In this document: piece after piece, positions 4,019 through 33,631 of the stretch
Numbering within the stretch: position 1 is the stretch's first letter
Layout of the letters: each line of letters starts with the position of its first letter
Sequence record: PQ462667.1
Origin: Escherichia phage HMD-P3
Direction: 5' to 3' (one strand)
DNA: 64,000 bases
The notes under the pieces: generated by a model
The model's input: only the letters and a program-made list of their open reading frames with translations
The model's database searches: none
What the model was told of the DNA's origin: nothing
Program-made: the position numbers and the translations under genes

Positions 4019-4249
4019 ATGGTTGCTTTTTCTTCTTCTGACGCTCTTTTCACTGGTAAAGGCTGGGTATCAAATCGCTGGATTATTCAAGAAATGGTGC
4101 AAGAATACGGCATCGCTAAAACTTATAATACCATTCAGGCGCTTTATGATAATGATCAAATCGATCAGCAAACGGCGGGCTTTTTACTGGATACCCTGAA
4201 GGCGGAACACTGTACCAAAAAACAAGCCGCTAAAATTGTTTTAATGTAA
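4019..4249 (+). CDS. hypothetical protein (start moved to the ATG behind GGAGG)
   Basis: In-frame ATG at 4019 preceded by ggaggcttaaa; the track start at 3986 is a TTG without an RBS. Confidence 0.55.
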   Translation: MVAFSSSDALFTGKGWVSNRWIIQEMVQEYGIAKTYNTIQALYDNDQIDQQTAGFLLDTLKAEHCTKKQAAKIVLM

Positions 4250-4297
4250 TTAATAACGGGGCGTTACTTTCGCCCCACTAACTAGGGAGTATTACAA

Positions 4298-4480
4298 ATG
4301 ATTATTTTTCGGGCTATTCTGGCGGGTATCTTGGGCGCTATTTTGACCCTTTTCGCCACCGCTTATGGTATTCAAGATTCTTATTGTGGTTTGGTAAACA
4401 CAAAACCTATGGTTATTATTGGCGCGGGCGTCGCTGTATTTTCTTATCTGCTGGGCTGCATGACTAGTAAAGGAGAATAA
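4298..4480 (+). CDS. small membrane protein
   Basis: 60 aa, two hydrophobic segments; RBS ctagggag. Confidence 0.55.
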   Translation: MIIFRAILAGILGAILTLFATAYGIQDSYCGLVNTKPMVIIGAGVAVFSYLLGCMTSKGE

Positions 4481-4482
4481 AA

Positions 4483-4695
4483 ATGATCCGCAACGTTTCT
4501 CTTGCACGTTCGAAAGGCTTTAAGCTGGTGGACGCTAACACGTTCGAGCGTCCAGATTGTAAAATCGAATATGTAGCACGTAATAAAAATGCCTTTCGTG
4601 TTACCGAGAAAAAATTTGATAAGCGCGGCAACGTGATCATTGAAACGGTTAGGCACTTTGCCACCTTTTACGCTGCGTTTCGTGGGGTACTATGA
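4483..4695 (+). CDS. hypothetical protein
   Basis: RBS aaaggagaa; tightly packed with neighbours. Confidence 0.55.
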   Translation: MIRNVSLARSKGFKLVDANTFERPDCKIEYVARNKNAFRVTEKKFDKRGNVIIETVRHFATFYAAFRGVL

Positions 4696-4823
4696 AAAGC
4701 GTTATTGTTGTTCTCCTTGCAATGGCTGGCGGTTTTATCGCCACCTTATTTAAGAATGATCCCATTTCGTTGGGTATCTTTATGCTTTTATCTGGATACC
4801 TGATCGGGAGGATATGCAAATGA
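4692..4823 (+). CDS. small membrane protein (43 aa, below the ORF-track cutoff)
   Basis: ATGA overlap with the upstream stop; hydrophobic product MKSVIVVLLAMAGGFIATLF; hand translation. Confidence 0.4.
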   Translation: MKSVIVVLLAMAGGFIATLFKNDPISLGIFMLLSGYLIGRICK

Positions 4824-5164
4824 TCATTTACGAGGGCAATCGTTTTGTTGCTAATTGCCGCCCGGCATTGTTAGCAAACTATTTGAACCAGCTTTCGCCA
4901 GCTTATAAGGGCGTTATTAATATTTACGAGGGAAAGGCGCATTATAAAATCAATGCGGTCGTTGCCCGTGAACTAGCGTTTCAATTTTTAACCTTTGCAT
5001 CTTGCGACGTTCAGGTTATGGGTGAGGCATTAATTGCAGAAAATGAGGATGATTTTATTAATATTTTTCGCAAGGTATGCACCGAGCGCCTGATAATGAA
5101 AGGCGCATATATTCAATCCACGGCTGATAGTATTGAAACAGCGTTTCGAAAGGTGGCGCAATGA
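4814..5164 (+). CDS. hypothetical protein
   Basis: 116-aa ORF; gggagg RBS. Confidence 0.55.
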   Translation: MQMIIYEGNRFVANCRPALLANYLNQLSPAYKGVINIYEGKAHYKINAVVARELAFQFLTFASCDVQVMGEALIAENEDDFINIFRKVCTERLIMKGAYIQSTADSIETAFRKVAQ

Positions 5165-27834: not shown

Positions 27835-27925
27835 TGGCGGAAGAGGAGAGATTTGAACTCTCAAGCCGTTTTACCAGTCAGCCACTTTCCAAGCGGTTTT
27901 CGTCGCCAATTCGATTTGCTCTTCC
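27835..27925 (-). tRNA. tRNA-Ser (GGA)
   Basis: Long variable arm; anticodon loop ttGGAaa; 3' GCCA. Confidence 0.6.
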
Positions 27926-28037
27926 AATAATAAGATGATGCCTCTATCACGCCAGGCAGTTACGCCTCGCTGGGATTCGAACCCATTAAAACAGCTCAAC
28001 CGAGATAGTAGGTTTAATTTACTCTGACCATCAAATT

Positions 28038-28120
28038 TGGTGCTTGCGGAGGGACTCGAACCCACACGAATTAACACGAACTCCTAAGGATCGCGCGTCT
28101 ACCAATTACGCCACGCAAGC
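28038..28120 (-). tRNA. tRNA-Leu (TAG)
   Basis: 5' gcttgcgtggcgtaattggtagac resembles E. coli tRNA-Leu; anticodon loop ctTAGga. Confidence 0.6.
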
Positions 28121-28606
28121 AATTATTTCTTCAAGTGGAGCATGAACCCACTCATTATTTCTAGATGAAAAAGAACTTAGGATTTCTTTTTCTTTGAGTT
28201 CATAATTATCTACTAGTTTATAATACTCTAATACATAGTCCCGAAAAGGGGAGTATGTTTGATAGGTATTTAATCTAGTCTCAGCATCTTTGGCTGCTCC
28301 TACTTTAAACCAGCCTGGAAAAGCTGGATTAGATATTATATAAATATATCCCAGCTTATTATTTATATTATTGATATAACAGTAAAGCTGTACTACTCTT
28401 AGGGATCTTTGATAGCTATGCTCTAGTCTCTTTTGGTATGTATTTGACTTCTTATCCTTACTAGGATTGGCCTTTCTAACTATATACCCATTATACCATA
28501 GAGCTATTTGCATGTAATTACTAGCGGTTACGTCTAGTTTGTTATTGTGGAGGAATATTTCTAACTCATTTAAGTTATCTTTTCTCCCATTTTTAGCTAT
28601 CTTCAT
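28106..28606 (-). CDS. T5orf172/GIY-YIG-like domain protein (homing-endonuclease-like)
   Basis: GYIYIISNPAFPGWFKVGAA...YQTYSPFRDY; paralog of 31392..31937. Confidence 0.65.
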   Translation of the reverse strand: MKIAKNGRKDNLNELEIFLHNNKLDVTASNYMQIALWYNGYIVRKANPSKDKKSNTYQKRLEHSYQRSLRVVQLYCYINNINNKLGYIYIISNPAFPGWFKVGAAKDAETRLNTYQTYSPFRDYVLEYYKLVDNYELKEKEILSSFSSRNNEWVHAPLEEIIACVA

Positions 28607-28624
28607 ACTACATACCCTTTAATT

Positions 28625-28700
28625 TGGTGGACAGTAGGAGAGTCGAACTCCTCACTCCTGAGTGCAAGTCAGGTATTTTCCCCAGATAAACTAACCGCCC
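28625..28700 (-). tRNA. tRNA-Ala (TGC)
   Basis: G3-U70 pair in the acceptor stem; anticodon arm cctga-ctTGCac-tcagg. Confidence 0.7.
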
Positions 28701-28985
28701 AAACTCTTTAGTTTACTAAGGCTATTAGCTCGGCGTAACTACAGCACCTTCGCTTCAAGCGGAAGGAACCGCGTCATCTCGCAAACCCGATACACTATTC
28801 AGTTGCCGCTGAATCTAGTGGACTAATCTAGAACTTCTCCCGAATCATAGGGATCGTGCTTTTTGGCAGCCAGTCCTAGGTCGAGCTAATACCTTAGTGA
28901 ACTATGATGAGGATTTCTCCTCATCAATTTATATAAATATTATAACAAGAAATTAAGCATCAAGCAACTGCATTTTTCTTGAAAT

Positions 28986-29064
28986 TGGTGGGTCGCCTGG
29001 GACTCGAACCCAGAACCTTCCGATTAAAAGTCGGATGCTACTAAACCTATTGAGCTAGCAACCC
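28986..29064 (-). tRNA. tRNA-Lys (TTT)
   Basis: Anticodon arm tccga-ctTTTaa-tcgga; T-arm ctggg-ttcgagt-cccag. Confidence 0.7.
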
Positions 29065-29073
29065 AAAATAACT

Positions 29074-29151
29074 TGGTAGCGGGTTCCAGTACTGCCCTGG
29101 ACTTACTTAGCTTATGAGACTAAGAAGAACTCTATGCCTCCCACCCGCAAT
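29074..29151 (-). tRNA. tRNA-like element, anticodon CAT, with non-canonical T-loop (GGCAGUA) and unpaired 1:72
   Basis: Anticodon arm ttagt-ctCATaa-gctaa, D-stem gagg/cttc, T-stem tccag/ctgga, CCA encoded. Confidence 0.35.
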
Positions 29152-29155
29152 TGTT

Positions 29156-29231
29156 TGGTCAGTGCGGCAGGACTCGAACCTGCGACCCGAAGCATCCAAG
29201 GCTCCCACGCTACCAACTGCGCTACGCACTG
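29156..29231 (-). tRNA. tRNA-Pro (TGG)
   Basis: 76 nt; anticodon loop ctTGGat; T-arm gcagg-ttcgagt-cctgc. Confidence 0.7.
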
Positions 29232-29240
29232 TTAATTCTT

Positions 29241-29438
29241 TTATTGTGGAGGAATATTAATAATTCGTCCATCTACACAATAAACGGTACTAGGAATCGT
29301 ACTATATATGTAGAAATTCTTTATATTACTCTCTCCGCCACAGAAATTTTTAGCAAATTCATACTCTTTATTAATGGTTGAGTCAAATTTAAAACAACCA
29401 GTAAGTAGGAATACAGATAGTAATAAAACTTTCTTCAT
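29241..29438 (-). CDS. small lipoprotein
   Basis: MKKVLLLSVFLLTGC (signal peptide with lipobox). Confidence 0.5.
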   Translation of the reverse strand: MKKVLLLSVFLLTGCFKFDSTINKEYEFAKNFCGGESNIKNFYIYSTIPSTVYCVDGRIINIPPQ

Positions 29439-29891
29439 TTAGCTTTCCTTCTCTTCACTTTATAAGATATATTATACAGAGAATTAAGCAGAATAGCAAA
29501 TGAATTTTTAATAAATTTACTTATTGTGTAGGCCACCTGGAGGCTACCAACCCCACGGCTGACAAAGAAGTTTGCGAGACCTCTCTTAAATGCCAGAATA
29601 GACCCGCCGATCTATCGGAACCTACATAATAAGTAAACTTTATAGTGTCATTCTAGACAGGACTCGAACCTGTTATCACTTGTGCGGACTTACGAGAACC
29701 ATTCTTTCACTCGAATCGAACGAGCTTCTGCCCTCGCCAAGCTGGTTTCCCCATCAACCACGCTAGAATGTTTGATTATTTTCAGTGCAAGAGTCCGAGT
29801 CTTGGACACGACCGCTTCGCAAGTACATAGGCAGCTTATCATGAGTCAGCACTTCCGAATTGCTAGCCCCGTGTTCTGCACTGAAATTTTG

Positions 29892-30239
29892 TTAATTTAA
29901 CAGTAAAGTACGATCTACTTCACCATTAATTGTTCGGCATTCTTCTGGGATCTCTGGTGTAGCCTTATATTCCCACCACTCAGAACCGTCATATTCACCA
30001 CGTTCTAACCAAGTTCCGTCAGTAAACCATACATTACCATAAAGCAATTGCCCACCATAACCAGAATCATATTTAAAGTCTAGATTATTTAGAAAATCTT
30101 CAATATCTTTTTCTGTATAACCTACGGGCAATACCCAAACTTCTTTGTCCCCATAATAACCGAATTCTATCTTAATACACTTAACTTCAGAATTAGTATT
30201 CTTTAGGGCAAGTAACAACTCTTCTTTAGCATTAATCAT
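29892..30239 (-). CDS. hypothetical protein
   Basis: 115-aa ORF. Confidence 0.5.
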   Translation of the reverse strand: MINAKEELLLALKNTNSEVKCIKIEFGYYGDKEVWVLPVGYTEKDIEDFLNNLDFKYDSGYGGQLLYGNVWFTDGTWLERGEYDGSEWWEYKATPEIPEECRTINGEVDRTLLLN

Positions 30240-30265
30240 AGCATATTTCTCGTGCTAGTTTAATT

Positions 30266-30342
30266 TGGCGCGACCGATGGGATTTGAACCCACATTCCCT
30301 CCCGTGACAGGGGAGTACCATTACCAAGCCAGCCCCGGTCGC
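30266..30342 (-). tRNA. tRNA-Asp (GTC)
   Basis: Anticodon loop ctGTCac; discriminator G. Confidence 0.7.
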
Positions 30343-30351
30343 ATAATTCAT

Positions 30352-30537
30352 TTACTCAGCTTTGAGTTTTTCAATAGCTGCATTAAGTTCCTTAAGAAAC
30401 TCTTTCCGTACATTAAGCTCTCGAATACTCATTAAAAGATCAGCCTTTCGAGCTTCAATATCTTTTTGTCGGCACTTAATGTTATTAGCTGTGTTATCAC
30501 GATGAACTTCTAACTGTGCAATTACATTCTTGGACAT
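30352..30537 (-). CDS. small coiled-coil protein
   Basis: 61-aa ORF. Confidence 0.4.
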   Translation of the reverse strand: MSKNVIAQLEVHRDNTANNIKCRQKDIEARKADLLMSIRELNVRKEFLKELNAAIEKLKAE

Positions 30538-30639
30538 GCTTGTTTCCTCAGTTATTAATGAAAATGGTATCTGTGGCTGAATTCGATGTCAGCAATGATA
30601 GCTGGTTGGCTACCGGCTTACTTAACTCTACACAGAATT

Positions 30640-30722
30640 TGGCGGGCCGTGTAGGATTCGAACCTACGTTGTCTTTCGACACGGATTAACAATCCGCCAC
30701 CAAACCGCTTGGCTAACGACCC
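30640..30722 (-). tRNA. tRNA, anticodon GTT (Asn?) with unusually long variable region
   Basis: Anticodon arm gcgga-ttGTTaa-tccgt; T-arm gtagg-ttcgaat-cctac; 83 nt. Confidence 0.5.
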
Positions 30723-30730
30723 TAAAAATT

Positions 30731-30806
30731 TGGACGACCGCATGAGATTTGAACTCACATAAAAAGGATTTGCAATCCTTCGCCTAAGCCATTCAGCCAA
30801 CGGTCG
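30731..30806 (-). tRNA. tRNA-Cys (GCA)
   Basis: Anticodon arm aagga-ttGCAaa-tcctt; discriminator U as in tRNA-Cys. Confidence 0.7.
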
Positions 30807-30875
30807 ATTTATCTTGTTCTGCCATGTTGCTTCTCCAGTTCAATTTATGTAATTATTATACAGAACTTTTGTAAA

Positions 30876-31163
30876 CTAAGCAACTACATTTTTTAAGAAT
30901 TTGATGCCTTTCTTTTTCTTCTTATATTTCCACGTTAAGGGATTCTGTCGATTATGAACGCTTGAGATCTTCGTCTCATCAAAGTTCTTCAATATCATGT
31001 AATCACAAGATAGTTGTTCTAGTGGAATGTGATCACCGTCAAAAGCATATACATAAGGCTGTTGACTAGCACGATAATGATAGACTTTGTTAATTCTACG
31101 TTTCAGCGACTTATCCGCGCAGTAAATAAAGAAATTTTCAGGATGCATCAGCAGCTCCTTCAA
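30876..31163 (-). CDS. hypothetical protein
   Basis: 95-aa ORF. Confidence 0.45.
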   Translation of the reverse strand: MKELLMHPENFFIYCADKSLKRRINKVYHYRASQQPYVYAFDGDHIPLEQLSCDYMILKNFDETKISSVHNRQNPLTWKYKKKKKGIKFLKNVVA

Positions 31164-31165
31164 AT

Positions 31166-31240
31166 TGGTGCACCCTGTTCGTATCGAACGAACCTCTCAA
31201 GCTCTTCAGGCAAGCGCTAATCCATCTCAGCTAAAGGTGC
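31166..31240 (-). tRNA. tRNA, probable Phe (GAA)
   Basis: Acceptor, D-stem and T-arm (gttcg-ttcgata-cgaac) are good; anticodon stem has two mismatches in my reading. Confidence 0.5.
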
Positions 31241-31246
31241 AAATTT

Positions 31247-31322
31247 TGGCAAACCTACTAGGACTCGAACCTAGACCGTACGGTTTTGGAGACCGACATG
31301 CTGTCCAGTAACACTCTAGGAA
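31247..31322 (-). tRNA. tRNA, probable Trp (CCA)
   Basis: Anticodon loop ctCCAaa and T-arm ctagg-ttcgagt-cctag are good; acceptor pairing poor in my reading. Confidence 0.4.
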
Positions 31323-31331
31323 TGCAGAAAT

Positions 31332-31406
31332 TGGTACACCCACGGAGAATTGAACTCCGATTCTCAGATTGAAATCCTGATGTCCTAACCATTAGACGAT
31401 AGGTGC
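31332..31406 (-). tRNA. tRNA-Glu (TTC)
   Basis: D-arm tcgtctaatggttaggaca resembles E. coli tRNA-Glu; anticodon loop atTTCaa. Confidence 0.6.
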
Positions 31407-31937
31407 ATTAACTATTTCTTTATTAACTTTCTGTACTAAATGTTCCAAGCCAGAAAGTTTATTAATTTGTTCAAATATTTTATTTAGTTTTCTCTGAGGC
31501 AACTTAACCCATTCATGGTCCCTATCTTGATAGAGGCTATGGACAAACTTTTCGCCTTCCTTTCTATCAAACCAGAAAGACCAGTGTAGCATTGTATAGT
31601 CCCTAAAAGGGCTATATGTTTGATAGTTTGCTAAGCGTTTCTTTGGGTTAGCTGACATACCAATCTTAAAATAATTGGGCCAGGCCTTATTTGCTATAAA
31701 ATATATGAAGCCTTCTTTTATGGGAAGTTTATTTTCTTGCTTAAATTTAATTAAGGATAAGCACAATAGTTTAACATTATATCTAAGATCTCCTAAGGAG
31801 ACTTTCTTAGCCTTTGTATTACTTAACTCTAAGTAAACTTTCGAGCATTCAACTATTAAATCTGGAGTTATATCAAACTCCTTAGTTTTTGTTATTATCT
31901 GTCTTTTTTGAAGCTCATTTATTAACTTATTGTGCAT
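31392..31937 (-). CDS. T5orf172/GIY-YIG-like domain protein (homing-endonuclease-like)
   Basis: GFIYFIANKAWPNYFKIGMS...YQTYSPFRDY; paralog of 28106..28606. Confidence 0.65.
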   Translation of the reverse strand: MHNKLINELQKRQIITKTKEFDITPDLIVECSKVYLELSNTKAKKVSLGDLRYNVKLLCLSLIKFKQENKLPIKEGFIYFIANKAWPNYFKIGMSANPKKRLANYQTYSPFRDYTMLHWSFWFDRKEGEKFVHSLYQDRDHEWVKLPQRKLNKIFEQINKLSGLEHLVQKVNKEIVNAPIV

Positions 31938-31955
31938 ATTACTTCCTTAGTAATT

Positions 31956-32036
31956 TGGTGGGGGATGGAGGACTCGAACCTCCGCGTGATATACCCGGTC
32001 TACAGCCAGGCGCCGTCGCCACTGAGCCAATCCCCC
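31956..32036 (-). tRNA. tRNA-Tyr (GTA)
   Basis: Acceptor gggggat; anticodon arm cctgg-ctGTAga-ccggg; long variable arm. Confidence 0.65.
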
Positions 32037-32225
32037 ATATTTGAATGAAAAGTAAGTCGGTTAAACTCAAGGTGGAATATTTCAGGATTTCCTGACTTTA
32101 CCCCTAAAGGCAACTCGCCTAATTACTTCTCATTCAGATATGTTTCCAAATTAGATAAATATTATATCAAGTTTTATAGTATTGGGCAAGTCAAATTTTA
32201 AAGAACTTGCCCAATGCTGTATTAG

Positions 32226-33553: not shown

Positions 33554-33631
33554 TGGTGGCTCCCCGAGGATTCGAACCTACGTACCTTCCGGTTATGAGC
33601 CGGGTGCTCATACCATATGAGCTTGAGAACC
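33554..33631 (-). tRNA. tRNA, anticodon CAT (Met or Ile2)
   Basis: Acceptor ggttctc/gggagcc (G-U pairs), D-stem gctc/gagc, anticodon loop ctCATaa. Confidence 0.55.

What the first reader, a model, noticed from the sequence alone, without database searches (positions are those of the whole stretch)
28106..31937. Two T5orf172/GIY-YIG-like paralogs embedded among tRNA genes
ORFs 28106..28606 and 31392..31937 share the GIY-YIG-like core (G[YF]IY[IF]I(S/A)N...F(K)(V/I)G ... YQTYSPFRDY). Each ends within about 15 nt of the 5' end of a tRNA gene (Leu and Glu). Homing-endonuclease-like genes beside tRNAs suggest tRNA genes as homing targets or selfish elements shaping the tRNA repertoire.
Basis: partly seen in the sequence, partly recalled or inferred. 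Interest (0 to 1): 0.4.

Follow-up and report, generated by a model that had tools for sequence, protein, structure and literature searches.

The report
Mobile nuclease genes wedged between phage tRNAs
Two related nuclease-like genes sit in the tiny gaps between tRNA genes of a T5-like phage and behave like selfish "homing" genes that copy themselves, together with neighbouring tRNA genes, into related phages; this kind of element is already known, so the case is well supported but not a new principle.

Summary
Both ORFs are on the minus strand. They do not merely end near a tRNA: each runs 15 nt into the downstream tRNA and takes its TAA stop from the tRNA D-loop. Both are full-length paralogs of the T5orf172 family (GIY-YIG superfamily; PHROG 5032), and T5 gene T5.069 is a third paralog.

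Comparative data support a free-standing homing-endonuclease-like element.
- **Patchy presence:** ORF1 is in 13 and ORF2 in 28 of 553 phage records that share this tRNA region.
- **Clean empty sites:** in relatives the same tRNAs lie 5-9 nt apart.
- **Horizontal transfer:** a 1.2-kb block around ORF2 is 97% identical between genera that are otherwise about 81% identical.
- **tRNA linkage:** ORF1 is perfectly linked to a tRNA-Leu variant found nowhere else.
- **Functional genes:** dN/dS is 0.01-0.1.
- **Family-wide pattern:** all 15 family members examined, across several phage families and metagenomes, lie in tRNA clusters, and 12 end within 5 nt of, or inside, a tRNA 5' end.

Nuclease activity and the cleavage target were not tested. 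The closest precedents are T4 SegB, the T5 HNH endonucleases and the ICP1 T5orf172 genes. This is a new member of a known kind, of moderate interest.

The parts
28106..28606 (-). ORF1, 166 aa, T5orf172-family putative homing endonuclease at site A, between tRNA-Ala and tRNA-Leu(tag)
   Evidence: ORF. Pfam T5orf172 1.5e-10 and MUG113 7e-8. PHROG 5032 6.6e-33. AF2 pLDDT 93.8. DNA present in only 13 phage records. dN/dS 0.09 against NBEco002.
28112..28351 (-). ORF1 C-terminal T5orf172 (GIY-YIG-like) core, aa 86-165, with invariant Y89, K101, G103, R111, E139, E152, W153
   Evidence: Pfam match to aa 86-165. Invariant columns in the 97-sequence alignment. Beta-beta-alpha-beta-alpha core in the AF2 model.
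28367..28606 (-). ORF1 N-terminal three-helix domain (aa 1-80), inferred DNA-targeting domain
   Evidence: Helices 8-21, 31-46 and 55-78 in the AF2 model. The DNA-binding role is inferred from the domain order of other T5orf172 nucleases (PMC8263062, PMC10448857).
28038..28120 (-). tRNA-Leu(tag), 83-nt variant linked to ORF1. Its first 15 nt (28106-28120) encode the last 4 codons and the TAA stop of ORF1.
   Evidence: ARAGORN. Rfam 51.1 bits. The non-overlapping 68 nt are 100% identical in exactly the same 13 records that carry ORF1 and are found nowhere else. Other phages carry variants 66-74% identical.
28607..28624 (-). 18-nt spacer with Shine-Dalgarno-like AAGGG between the tRNA-Ala CCA end and the ORF1 ATG
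   Evidence: Sequence read.
28625..28700 (-). tRNA-Ala(tgc), upstream neighbour of ORF1. This variant is not strictly linked to ORF1.
   Evidence: NBEco002 has ORF1 but a T5-type tRNA-Ala.
31392..31937 (-). ORF2, 181 aa, T5orf172-family putative homing endonuclease at site B, between tRNA-Tyr and tRNA-Glu. It is 51% identical to T5 gene T5.069.
   Evidence: ORF. Pfam. PHROG 5032 2.2e-58. Comparison with T5.069. AF2 pLDDT 93.4. DNA in 28 records. dN/dS 0.01-0.12 in six comparisons and 0.35 in one near-identical pair.
31464..31712 (-). ORF2 C-terminal T5orf172 core, aa 76-158, with invariant Y79, K91, G93, R101, P110, E129, E142, W143
31728..31937 (-). ORF2 N-terminal three-helix domain (aa 1-70), inferred DNA-targeting domain
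31332..31406 (-). tRNA-Glu(ttc), 75-nt variant. Its first 15 nt (31392-31406) encode the last 4 codons and the TAA stop of ORF2.
   Evidence: 56.9 bits. The variant is in 94 records, including many that lack ORF2.
31938..31955 (-). 18-nt spacer with Shine-Dalgarno AAGGAAG between the tRNA-Tyr CCA end and the ORF2 ATG. It contains the left insertion junction.
31956..32036 (-). tRNA-Tyr(gta), 81-nt variant with a short (about 10-nt) variable region, upstream neighbour of ORF2
   Evidence: 83 records; 49.9 bits.
30829..32054 (.). 1.2-kb high-identity island covering a small ORF, tRNA-Phe, tRNA-Trp, tRNA-Glu, ORF2 and tRNA-Tyr. It is shared at 97% with Epseptimavirus beppo inside about 81% flanks and is read as a co-conversion tract.
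30723..30730 (-). Empty site C: the 8-nt spacer between tRNA-Cys and tRNA-Asn, where T5, NBEco002 and others carry the third paralog T5.069

Best explanation
ORF1 and ORF2 are intact, free-standing homing-endonuclease-type genes of the T5orf172 branch of the GIY-YIG superfamily. They belong to a lineage (PHROG 5032) that specialises in phage tRNA clusters.

Proposed mechanism:
1. Each gene is transcribed as part of the tRNA precursor and translated from its own Shine-Dalgarno site, 18 nt after the upstream tRNA.
2. The protein has an N-terminal three-helix targeting domain and a C-terminal nuclease core with Tyr, Lys-x-Gly, Arg and Glu.
3. In a cell co-infected with a relative that lacks the gene, the protein cuts the relative's DNA at or next to the matching tRNA-tRNA junction.
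4. Recombinational repair from the gene-bearing genome copies in the gene together with the adjacent tRNA variant(s).
5. The gene-linked tRNA variant, or the interrupted junction, is presumed not to be cut.

What is shown: family membership, intact coding sequence under purifying selection, patchy presence, precise empty sites, transfer between genera with a co-conversion tract, tRNA-variant linkage, and the family-wide rule of insertion at tRNA 5' ends.

What is inferred: nuclease activity, the cleavage site, and immunity of the occupied allele.

For: **Mobility.**
- The 4.2-kb region matches 553 phage records, but ORF1 is in 13 and ORF2 in 28. Only NBEco002 has both, and all four presence/absence combinations occur.
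- Empty sites have the tRNAs 5-9 nt apart.
- A same-flank empty site defines an insertion of about 541 nt inside an 8-nt spacer.
- Window 30829-32054 is 97.0% identical to Epseptimavirus beppo, against 80.8% and 81.0% in the flanks.
- Part of that tract (beppo 4163-5005, downstream of ORF2) is only 76.6% identical between beppo and its ORF2-less sister bobsandoy, which is 94-99% identical to beppo in the other aligned blocks.

**Function retained.** There are no internal stops. In the pairs with enough divergence dN/dS is 0.01-0.12, with dS up to 0.41.

**tRNA link.**
- The tRNA-Leu variant occurs only with ORF1, 13 of 13 records.
- The tRNA-Asn variant tracks T5.069 in all 17 loci that carry a tRNA-Asn.
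- The linked variants score as well as or better than T5's as tRNAs.
- All 15 family members examined are in tRNA clusters, and 12 end between a 24-nt overlap and a 5-nt gap from a tRNA 5' end, in front of at least 8 different tRNA species.

**Precedent.** T4 SegB is a GIY-YIG homing endonuclease in a tRNA cluster that cuts tRNA genes and spreads the flanking tRNAs (PMC2330249).
Against: - No cleavage or inheritance experiment exists for these proteins.
- The second motif tyrosine of canonical GIY-YIG enzymes is an invariant lysine here.
- The tRNA-Tyr and tRNA-Glu variants next to ORF2 also occur without ORF2 in roughly 55-65 records. For ORF2, therefore, immunity cannot rest on tRNA sequence differences alone.
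- Very low dN/dS together with dS up to 0.41 at a fixed site would also fit a gene that benefits the phage.
Confidence: 0.8

Rival explanations
1. The genes are retained because they benefit the phage rather than acting only as selfish elements. For example, the nuclease may stimulate recombination or amplification in the tRNA cluster, or may deliver tRNA variants that escape host tRNA-cleaving defences. Homing is then secondary.
For: - Purifying selection is strong and the gene has persisted at one site: dN/dS 0.01-0.12 with dS up to 0.41.
- The linked tRNA variants are good tRNAs.
- The ORF2-linked tRNA-Tyr has an unusually short variable region (and manual reading).
- SegB-driven amplification of a tRNA-Tyr locus lets T6 escape Septu, which cuts the tRNA-Tyr variable loop (PMC13096335).
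Against: - Most relatives lack the genes.
- No defence or escape phenotype was tested.
- Purifying selection is also expected for an actively homing element that keeps invading empty sites, and such sites are abundant.
Confidence: 0.3
2. The proteins are catalytically inactive DNA- or RNA-binding proteins. This would fit the database label 'T5 Orf172 DNA-binding domain'. They might, for instance, regulate expression or processing of the tRNA cluster, and their patchy distribution would reflect ordinary recombination among phages.
For: - The canonical second tyrosine is replaced by lysine.
- Structural similarity to solved GIY-YIG nucleases is weak.
- The genes are embedded in and overlap tRNA genes.
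Against: - The Tyr, Arg and Glu positions are invariant in 97 homologs.
- A T5orf172 protein with the same domain order, ICP1 Odn, is an active DNA endonuclease that depends on its conserved Glu (PMC8263062).
- The co-conversion island centred on ORF2 is what a DNA break would produce.
Confidence: 0.1
3. The genes are ancestral and vertically inherited, and have been lost repeatedly by deletion in most lineages. They are not mobile.
For: - In all copies each gene sits at the same site.
- Deletions do occur, as in the PK7 hybrid.
Against: - The island around ORF2 is 97% identical between two genera inside about 81% flanks, and that tract is foreign (76.6%) relative to the ORF2-less sister phage.
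- The presence patterns of ORF1, ORF2 and T5.069 are overlapping but not nested.
- Family members stand in front of at least 8 different tRNA species in several phage families.
- For ORF1 identity jumps from at least 95% to below 60% with nothing in between.
Confidence: 0.05

Closest known systems
T4 SegB, a free-standing GIY-YIG homing endonuclease in the T4 tRNA gene cluster (PMC2330249; PMC13096335)
   Same: - It is a free-standing nuclease gene located among phage tRNA genes.
- It is absent from close relatives.
- It spreads together with the flanking tRNA genes, and relatives differ in tRNA content around it.
   Different: - SegB is a canonical GIY-YIG protein, whereas the genes here hit only T5orf172 and MUG113 and have KIG in place of YIG. 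From general knowledge of GIY-YIG homing enzymes, not checked here, SegB's nuclease domain is N-terminal. Here it is C-terminal, after an N-terminal helical domain.
- SegB's cleavage at the tRNA T-psi-C motif and its roughly 100% inheritance in crosses are experimentally shown. Nothing has been tested for ORF1 or ORF2.
- The ORFs here overlap the downstream tRNA and borrow its stop codon.
T5 gene T5.069 (YP_006897) and other T5orf172 genes of T5-like phages
   Same: - It belongs to the same family. It is 51% identical to ORF2 over the full length and 41% identical to the ORF1 core.
- It has the same architecture and orientation.
- It also lies between two tRNAs (Cys and Asn), runs 24 nt into the downstream tRNA, and is linked to a divergent tRNA-Asn variant.
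   Different: - It occupies a different inter-tRNA site, which is empty in this window at 30723-30730.
- T5 itself lacks ORF1 and ORF2.
- It is annotated only as a hypothetical protein.
ICP1 T5orf172 putative homing endonucleases and the Odn (Gp88) nuclease (PMC10448857; PMC8263062)
   Same: - They have the same nuclease domain family and the same layout: a variable N-terminal DNA-binding part followed by a C-terminal T5orf172 domain.
- Their presence varies between isolates.
- Barth et al. already list T5-like phages as enriched in T5orf172 genes.
   Different: - The ICP1 genes sit near or inside essential protein-coding genes, not in tRNA clusters.
- Odn has been repurposed against a phage satellite.
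- The tRNA-flush insertion and the tRNA-variant linkage seen here do not appear among the passages of Barth et al. that mention tRNA or T5-like phages.
T5 HNH endonucleases hegA-D / F-TflI, II, IV in the T5 tRNA region (Akulenko 2004, cited in PMC2330249 and PMC10644984)
   Same: - They occupy the same genomic niche and show the same geometry. hegC and hegD overlap the 5' end of the downstream tRNA by 14 and 23 nt.
- HNH_3/NUMOD4 genes sit in equivalent spots in IrmaTschudi and HMD-P4.
   Different: - Their nuclease fold (HNH, His-Me finger) is unrelated.
- Their site-specific endonuclease activity has been shown experimentally.

Membership tests
Pfam T5orf172 (PF10544) / MUG113 (PF13455), GIY-YIG clan | Profile HMM score above the curated gathering threshold | tested here: met
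   ORF1 scores 41.9 and 33.4 bits and ORF2 scores 37.8 and 38.9 bits, against cut-offs of 20 and 22.3.
GIY-YIG nuclease superfamily | First motif GIY, with its tyrosine on beta-strand 1 | tested here: met
   GYIY (Y89) in ORF1 and GFIY (Y79) in ORF2.
GIY-YIG nuclease superfamily | Second motif YIG, with its tyrosine on beta-strand 2 | tested here: not met
   The motif is K-V/I-G with an invariant lysine (K101 in ORF1, K91 in ORF2) where I-TevI has Y17. This is typical of T5orf172 proteins.
GIY-YIG nuclease superfamily | Conserved arginine after motif 2 and a metal-binding glutamate on a later helix | tested here: inconclusive
   R111/R101 are invariant and align with I-TevI R27. E139/E129 are invariant at the start of a helix, but their equivalence to I-TevI E75 or Odn E180 was not shown by an alignment here.
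GIY-YIG nuclease superfamily | GIY-YIG alpha/beta fold | tested here: inconclusive
Free-standing homing endonuclease genes (Seg/Mob-like) | Sporadic presence at a fixed intergenic site among close relatives, with precise empty sites | tested here: met
   The genes are in 13 and 28 of 553 records. Empty sites are documented.
Free-standing homing endonuclease genes (Seg/Mob-like) | Horizontal spread with co-conversion of flanking markers | tested here: met
   There is a 1.2-kb island at 97% identity inside 81% flanks. Part of it, downstream of ORF2, is only 76.6% identical to the ORF2-less sister phage. ORF1 is linked to the tRNA-Leu variant in 13 of 13 records.
Free-standing homing endonuclease genes (Seg/Mob-like) | The encoded protein cleaves the gene-less allele site-specifically | not testable with these tools
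   This needs purified protein and junction DNA from T5, HMD-P4 or bobsandoy.
Free-standing homing endonuclease genes (Seg/Mob-like) | Super-Mendelian inheritance in mixed infection that depends on an intact gene | not testable with these tools
   This needs phage crosses.
T4 SegB-type (canonical GIY-YIG Seg proteins) | Canonical GIY-YIG catalytic domain (Pfam GIY-YIG model), with the nuclease domain N-terminal and the DNA-binding region C-terminal | tested here: not met
   Only T5orf172 and MUG113 models hit, and the nuclease core is C-terminal, after an N-terminal helical domain. The SegB-type domain order is taken from general knowledge of GIY-YIG homing enzymes. The genes may work like SegB but are not members of that family.

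The most novel reading that the evidence does not exclude
PHROG 5032 T5orf172 genes form a dedicated tRNA-gene-homing lineage found across Demerecviridae, Straboviridae and uncultured phages. Three things would follow.
1. The genes insert flush against tRNA 5' ends and use conserved tRNA core nucleotides (U8-A9-G10, or N13-A14-R15) as their stop codon. RNase P processing of the tRNA would then cut the stop codon off the nuclease mRNA and so limit its expression.
2. They drive wholesale replacement of phage tRNA genes by 60-75%-identical variants with the same anticodon.
3. They thereby generate the tRNA sequence diversity that lets T5-like phages escape tRNA-cleaving host defences. One candidate is the short-variable-loop tRNA-Tyr that accompanies ORF2.
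Probability: 0.3. Interest if true: 0.65.

Novelty: new member of a known kind. Interest (0 to 1): 0.45.

Why it matters
T5-like phages carry nearly complete tRNA sets, and recent work links these to escape from tRNA-cleaving bacterial defences. The data here indicate that much of the variation in that tRNA region between otherwise near-identical phages is tied to small nuclease genes. That variation covers which tRNAs are present and which sequence variant of each. The nuclease genes move together with an adjacent tRNA, and recombination between two copies can delete the tRNAs lying between them.

The region also offers a concrete and easily tested system. The donor and recipient junctions are defined to the nucleotide, so T5orf172 homing can be tested directly; according to Barth et al. 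2023 it had not been shown experimentally. The same system can test whether selfish nucleases feed the phage-host arms race over tRNAs. For annotation, these genes are mostly unannotated or labelled 'hypothetical' because they overlap tRNAs.

Tried and rejected
- **Foldseek against PDB (ORF1 model).** No significant match.
- **Profile search of PDB sequences.** It returned nothing, so no solved T5orf172 structure was available for residue mapping.
- **hhalign to I-TevI.** Only the first 25 columns aligned, so the catalytic Glu equivalence stays unproven.
- **NCBIfam.** No model for either protein.
- **IMG/VR scans with both proteins.** They returned almost only copies of GenBank phages.
- **Promoter/terminator scan.** Counts were not above shuffled expectation. 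The only useful site is a promoter-like match upstream of tRNA-Tyr.
- **Early idea that the tRNA-Tyr and tRNA-Glu variants occur only with ORF2.** This was suggested by 18 loci and rejected by database-wide counts of 83 and 94 records against 28. Exclusive linkage holds only for ORF1 with tRNA-Leu, and within the sample for T5.069 with tRNA-Asn.
- **Idea that the overlapped tRNAs are damaged pseudogenes.** One record labels the tRNA-Tyr 'pseudo'. This was rejected because Rfam scores are 50-57 bits, equal to or above the T5 variants.
- **Idea that the upstream tRNA is the conserved anchor.** Rejected: only 8 of 15 family members have a tRNA within 31 nt upstream, against 12 of 15 with a tRNA flush downstream.

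Full report
**What is in the window**

The window is from a T5-like phage (Demerecviridae). The best DNA matches of 27900-32100 are Phage NBEco002, Shigella phage SSP1 and Salmonella phages SE11 and Th1, at 95-98% identity but with only 80-90% coverage. ARAGORN finds 22 tRNA genes, all on the minus strand, between 24757 and 37340. Rfam confirms them and adds one at 33557-33631.

The two ORFs named in the finding are also on the minus strand: ORF1 at 28106..28606 (166 aa) and ORF2 at 31392..31937 (181 aa). Both pass the Pfam T5orf172 and MUG113 thresholds and both hit PHROG 5032, a family of unknown function. They are 41% identical over the 79-aa core (E = 4e-20) and are the only copies in the window. 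The quoted motifs are present.

**Anatomy**

The two genes have the same geometry.
- The ATG lies 18 nt after the CCA end of an upstream tRNA: Ala for ORF1 and Tyr for ORF2. A Shine-Dalgarno-like sequence sits in that spacer.
- The reading frame runs 15 nt into the downstream tRNA: Leu-tag for ORF1 and Glu for ORF2.
- The last four codons and the TAA stop are therefore tRNA nucleotides 1-15, and the stop is at D-loop positions 13-15.

**The proteins**

A profile search gave 103 homologs. In a 97-sequence alignment Y79, K91, G93, R101, P110, E129, E142 and W143 (ORF2 numbering) are invariant.

The AlphaFold models are confident, with pLDDT 93.4 and 93.8. Both show an N-terminal three-helix domain followed by a beta-beta-alpha-beta-alpha core. 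The two are therefore full-length paralogs.

Structural support for a GIY-YIG fold is weak.
- Foldseek against PDB found nothing significant for ORF1.
- The PDB holds no sequence relative.

The family thus keeps the first tyrosine, the arginine and an invariant glutamate, but has lysine where canonical enzymes have the second tyrosine. One T5orf172 protein with the same domain order, ICP1 Odn, is a proven DNA endonuclease that depends on its conserved glutamate (PMC8263062). Activity of ORF1 and ORF2 is inferred, not shown.

**Presence and absence**

The 4.2-kb region matches 553 phage records. ORF1 DNA is in 13 of them and ORF2 DNA in 28, two of which are partial. Only NBEco002 has both. Genomes with ORF1 only, ORF2 only, both or neither all exist.

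In T5 and HMD-P4 the same tRNA pairs lie 5-9 nt apart with nothing between them.

For ORF2 there are empty sites with identical flanks, in Epseptimavirus bobsandoy and IrmaTschudi.
- Empty: ...CCCCCACCA AAATTAAT GCACC...
- Occupied: ...CCCCCACCA AATTA[CTAAGGAAGTAATATG...ORF2...GAAATAG]TTAAT GCACC...

This is a clean insertion of about 541 nt inside an 8-nt spacer, with a few bases of microhomology at the ends.

**Horizontal transfer**

- The window and beppo, an Epseptimavirus that carries ORF2, are 80.8% and 81.0% identical in the segments on either side. They are 97.0% identical over window 30829-32054, which covers a small ORF, tRNA-Phe, tRNA-Trp, tRNA-Glu, ORF2 and tRNA-Tyr.
- Beppo and its ORF2-less sister bobsandoy are 94-99% identical in the other aligned blocks. 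They are only 76.6% identical over the tract just downstream of ORF2.

Beppo has therefore acquired ORF2 together with about 0.6-0.8 kb of downstream flank and about 0.1 kb of upstream flank.

**Linkage to tRNA variants**

In 18 loci the tRNAs next to these genes exist as sharply different variants with the same anticodon, 58-77% identical to each other. tRNA-His and tRNA-Leu(taa) are 99-100% identical in every locus that carries them, and tRNA-Phe is 97-100% identical in the rows shown.
- **ORF1:** the 83-nt tRNA-Leu(tag) variant occurs, over its 68 non-overlapping nucleotides, in exactly the 13 records that have ORF1, always at 100% identity, and nowhere else among 50,697 phage records.
- **T5.069:** the 78-nt tRNA-Asn variant tracks this paralog in all 17 loci that carry a tRNA-Asn.
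- **ORF2:** the linkage is looser. The tRNA-Tyr and tRNA-Glu variants occur in 83 and 94 records, against 28 with ORF2.
- **Upstream of ORF1:** the tRNA-Ala variant is not linked, since NBEco002 has the T5 type.

The linked variants are good tRNAs. Rfam scores are 51.1 (Leu), 56.9 (Glu) and 49.9 (Tyr) bits, equal to or better than T5's.

**A family-wide rule**

T5 gene T5.069 is 51% identical to ORF2. It lies between tRNA-Cys and tRNA-Asn and runs 24 nt into tRNA-Asn. That site is empty in this window, at 30723-30730.

Further members stand in front of many other tRNAs.

| Source | Downstream tRNA |
|---|---|
| BF23, IrmaTschudi | Lys |
| Vibrio phage PG07 | Glu |
| A Klebsiella T5-like phage | Pro |
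| Aeromonas phage 60AhydR15PP (T4-like) | Thr |
| Eight metagenome contigs | Asn, Asp, Lys, Gln, Pro or Val |

All 15 members examined are in tRNA clusters and co-oriented with the tRNAs. Twelve end between a 24-nt overlap and a 5-nt gap from a tRNA 5' end.

Their stop codons repeatedly fall on conserved tRNA nucleotides: TAG at positions 8-10, or TAA/TAG at positions 13-15. HNH-type endonuclease genes occupy equivalent spots. T5 hegC and hegD overlap tRNAs by 14 and 23 nt, and the same kind of gene is found in IrmaTschudi and HMD-P4.

**Selection**

All copies examined are intact. In the more divergent ORF2 comparisons dN/dS is 0.01-0.04, with dS up to 0.41. For ORF1 against NBEco002 it is 0.09. 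The proteins are under strong constraint. This fits an element that keeps homing into abundant empty sites, but it also leaves room for a benefit to the phage.

**Mechanism proposed**

Shown: family membership, intactness, patchiness, precise empty sites, inter-genus transfer with flanks, tRNA-variant linkage, and the tRNA-5'-end insertion rule.

Inferred: the protein binds through its N-terminal helical domain and cuts gene-less genomes at or beside the corresponding tRNA junction. Repair then copies in the gene and the neighbouring tRNA variant, and the occupied allele escapes cutting. T4 SegB provides the experimental precedent. It is a GIY-YIG enzyme in the T4 tRNA cluster that cuts tRNA genes at the T-psi-C motif and spreads itself and the surrounding tRNAs (PMC2330249). 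It can also amplify the tRNA locus under defence pressure (PMC13096335).

A further inference follows from the overlap. RNase P cleavage at the tRNA 5' end would remove the stop codon from the nuclease mRNA, which could restrain its expression.

**Comparison with what is known, and novelty**

Barth et al. (PMC10448857) already treat T5orf172 genes as putative homing endonucleases and note that they are abundant in T5-like phages. Homing endonucleases in the T5 tRNA region (HNH type) and in the T4 tRNA region (SegB) are established. ORF1 and ORF2 are thus new members of a known kind.

Several points do not appear among the passages I searched in those papers for tRNA and T5-like terms: the specialisation of this T5orf172 lineage for tRNA 5' ends across phage families, the borrowed stop codon, the exclusive ORF1/tRNA-Leu linkage, and the PK7 hybrid. 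They would merit a short study but do not change the category.

**Verdict**

The biochemistry is untested. Interest is moderate.

Noticed in passing
L020 2694-3215 (Salmonella phage PK7; PK8 gave the same partial ORF2 match): This is a hybrid gene. Nucleotides 1 to about 200 match ORF2 at 97% or more, and the rest matches T5.069 at 97% or more. The crossover lies in the conserved KFKQENKLPI stretch. In PK7 the tRNA-Glu, Trp, Phe and Cys genes that normally lie between the two paralog sites are missing. Recombination between paralogs has therefore deleted four tRNA genes.
   Followed up: yes
window 30723-30730: tRNA-Cys and tRNA-Asn are only 8 nt apart here. This is the empty form of the site that holds the third paralog, T5.069, in T5, NBEco002, HMD-P5 and others. 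The window also has the 83-nt tRNA-Asn variant, whereas every T5.069-bearing genome examined has a 78-nt variant that is 64-65% identical to the window's.
   Followed up: yes
window 33557-33631 (minus strand): Rfam finds a tRNA here at 40.3 bits that ARAGORN did not report. It lies directly beside tRNA-Ser(gct), the same arrangement in which T5 has tRNA-Ile2(CAU). The window therefore has 23 tRNA genes, not 22.
   Followed up: partly
window 31956-32036, compared with L004 8341-8428: The tRNA-Tyr variant next to ORF2 is 81 nt, with a variable region of only about 10 nt. Other T5-like phages have 87-91-nt variants with a long variable arm. Septu cuts the tRNA-Tyr variable loop, and retron-Eco7, which shares the same PtuAB proteins, acts by cleaving host tRNA-Tyr (PMC13096335). 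This variant might therefore behave differently, but that was not tested.
   Followed up: partly
L012 3388-3464 (108,640-bp T5-like phage from IMG/VR): At the position where relatives carry tRNA-Trp(CCA), this phage has a tRNA with anticodon CTA, which ARAGORN calls 'Pyl'. It looks like an amber-suppressor form of the Trp tRNA.
   Followed up: no
L014 2905-2998 (120,622-bp T5-like phage): The tRNA-Glu of the ORF2-associated type carries an internal 19-nt tandem duplication and is 94 nt long. It sits at an empty site next to a different tRNA-Tyr variant.
   Followed up: no
L004 2398-2979 and 4023-4607 (T5 hegD, hegC); L022 3885-4466; L002 2156-2746: HNH_3/NUMOD4 endonuclease genes in T5-like tRNA clusters show the same geometry as the T5orf172 genes. 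They are co-oriented with the tRNAs and overlap the 5' end of the downstream tRNA by 10-23 nt. Two unrelated nuclease families thus share the same niche.
   Followed up: partly
Loci L001-L022, tRNA-Pro, tRNA-Lys(ttt), tRNA-Ala and tRNA-Asp: Several tRNAs that are not next to a T5orf172 gene also exist as two to five variants only 62-78% identical to each other, in genomes that are otherwise 90-99% identical. The tRNA region is mosaic at the level of single tRNA genes.
   Followed up: partly
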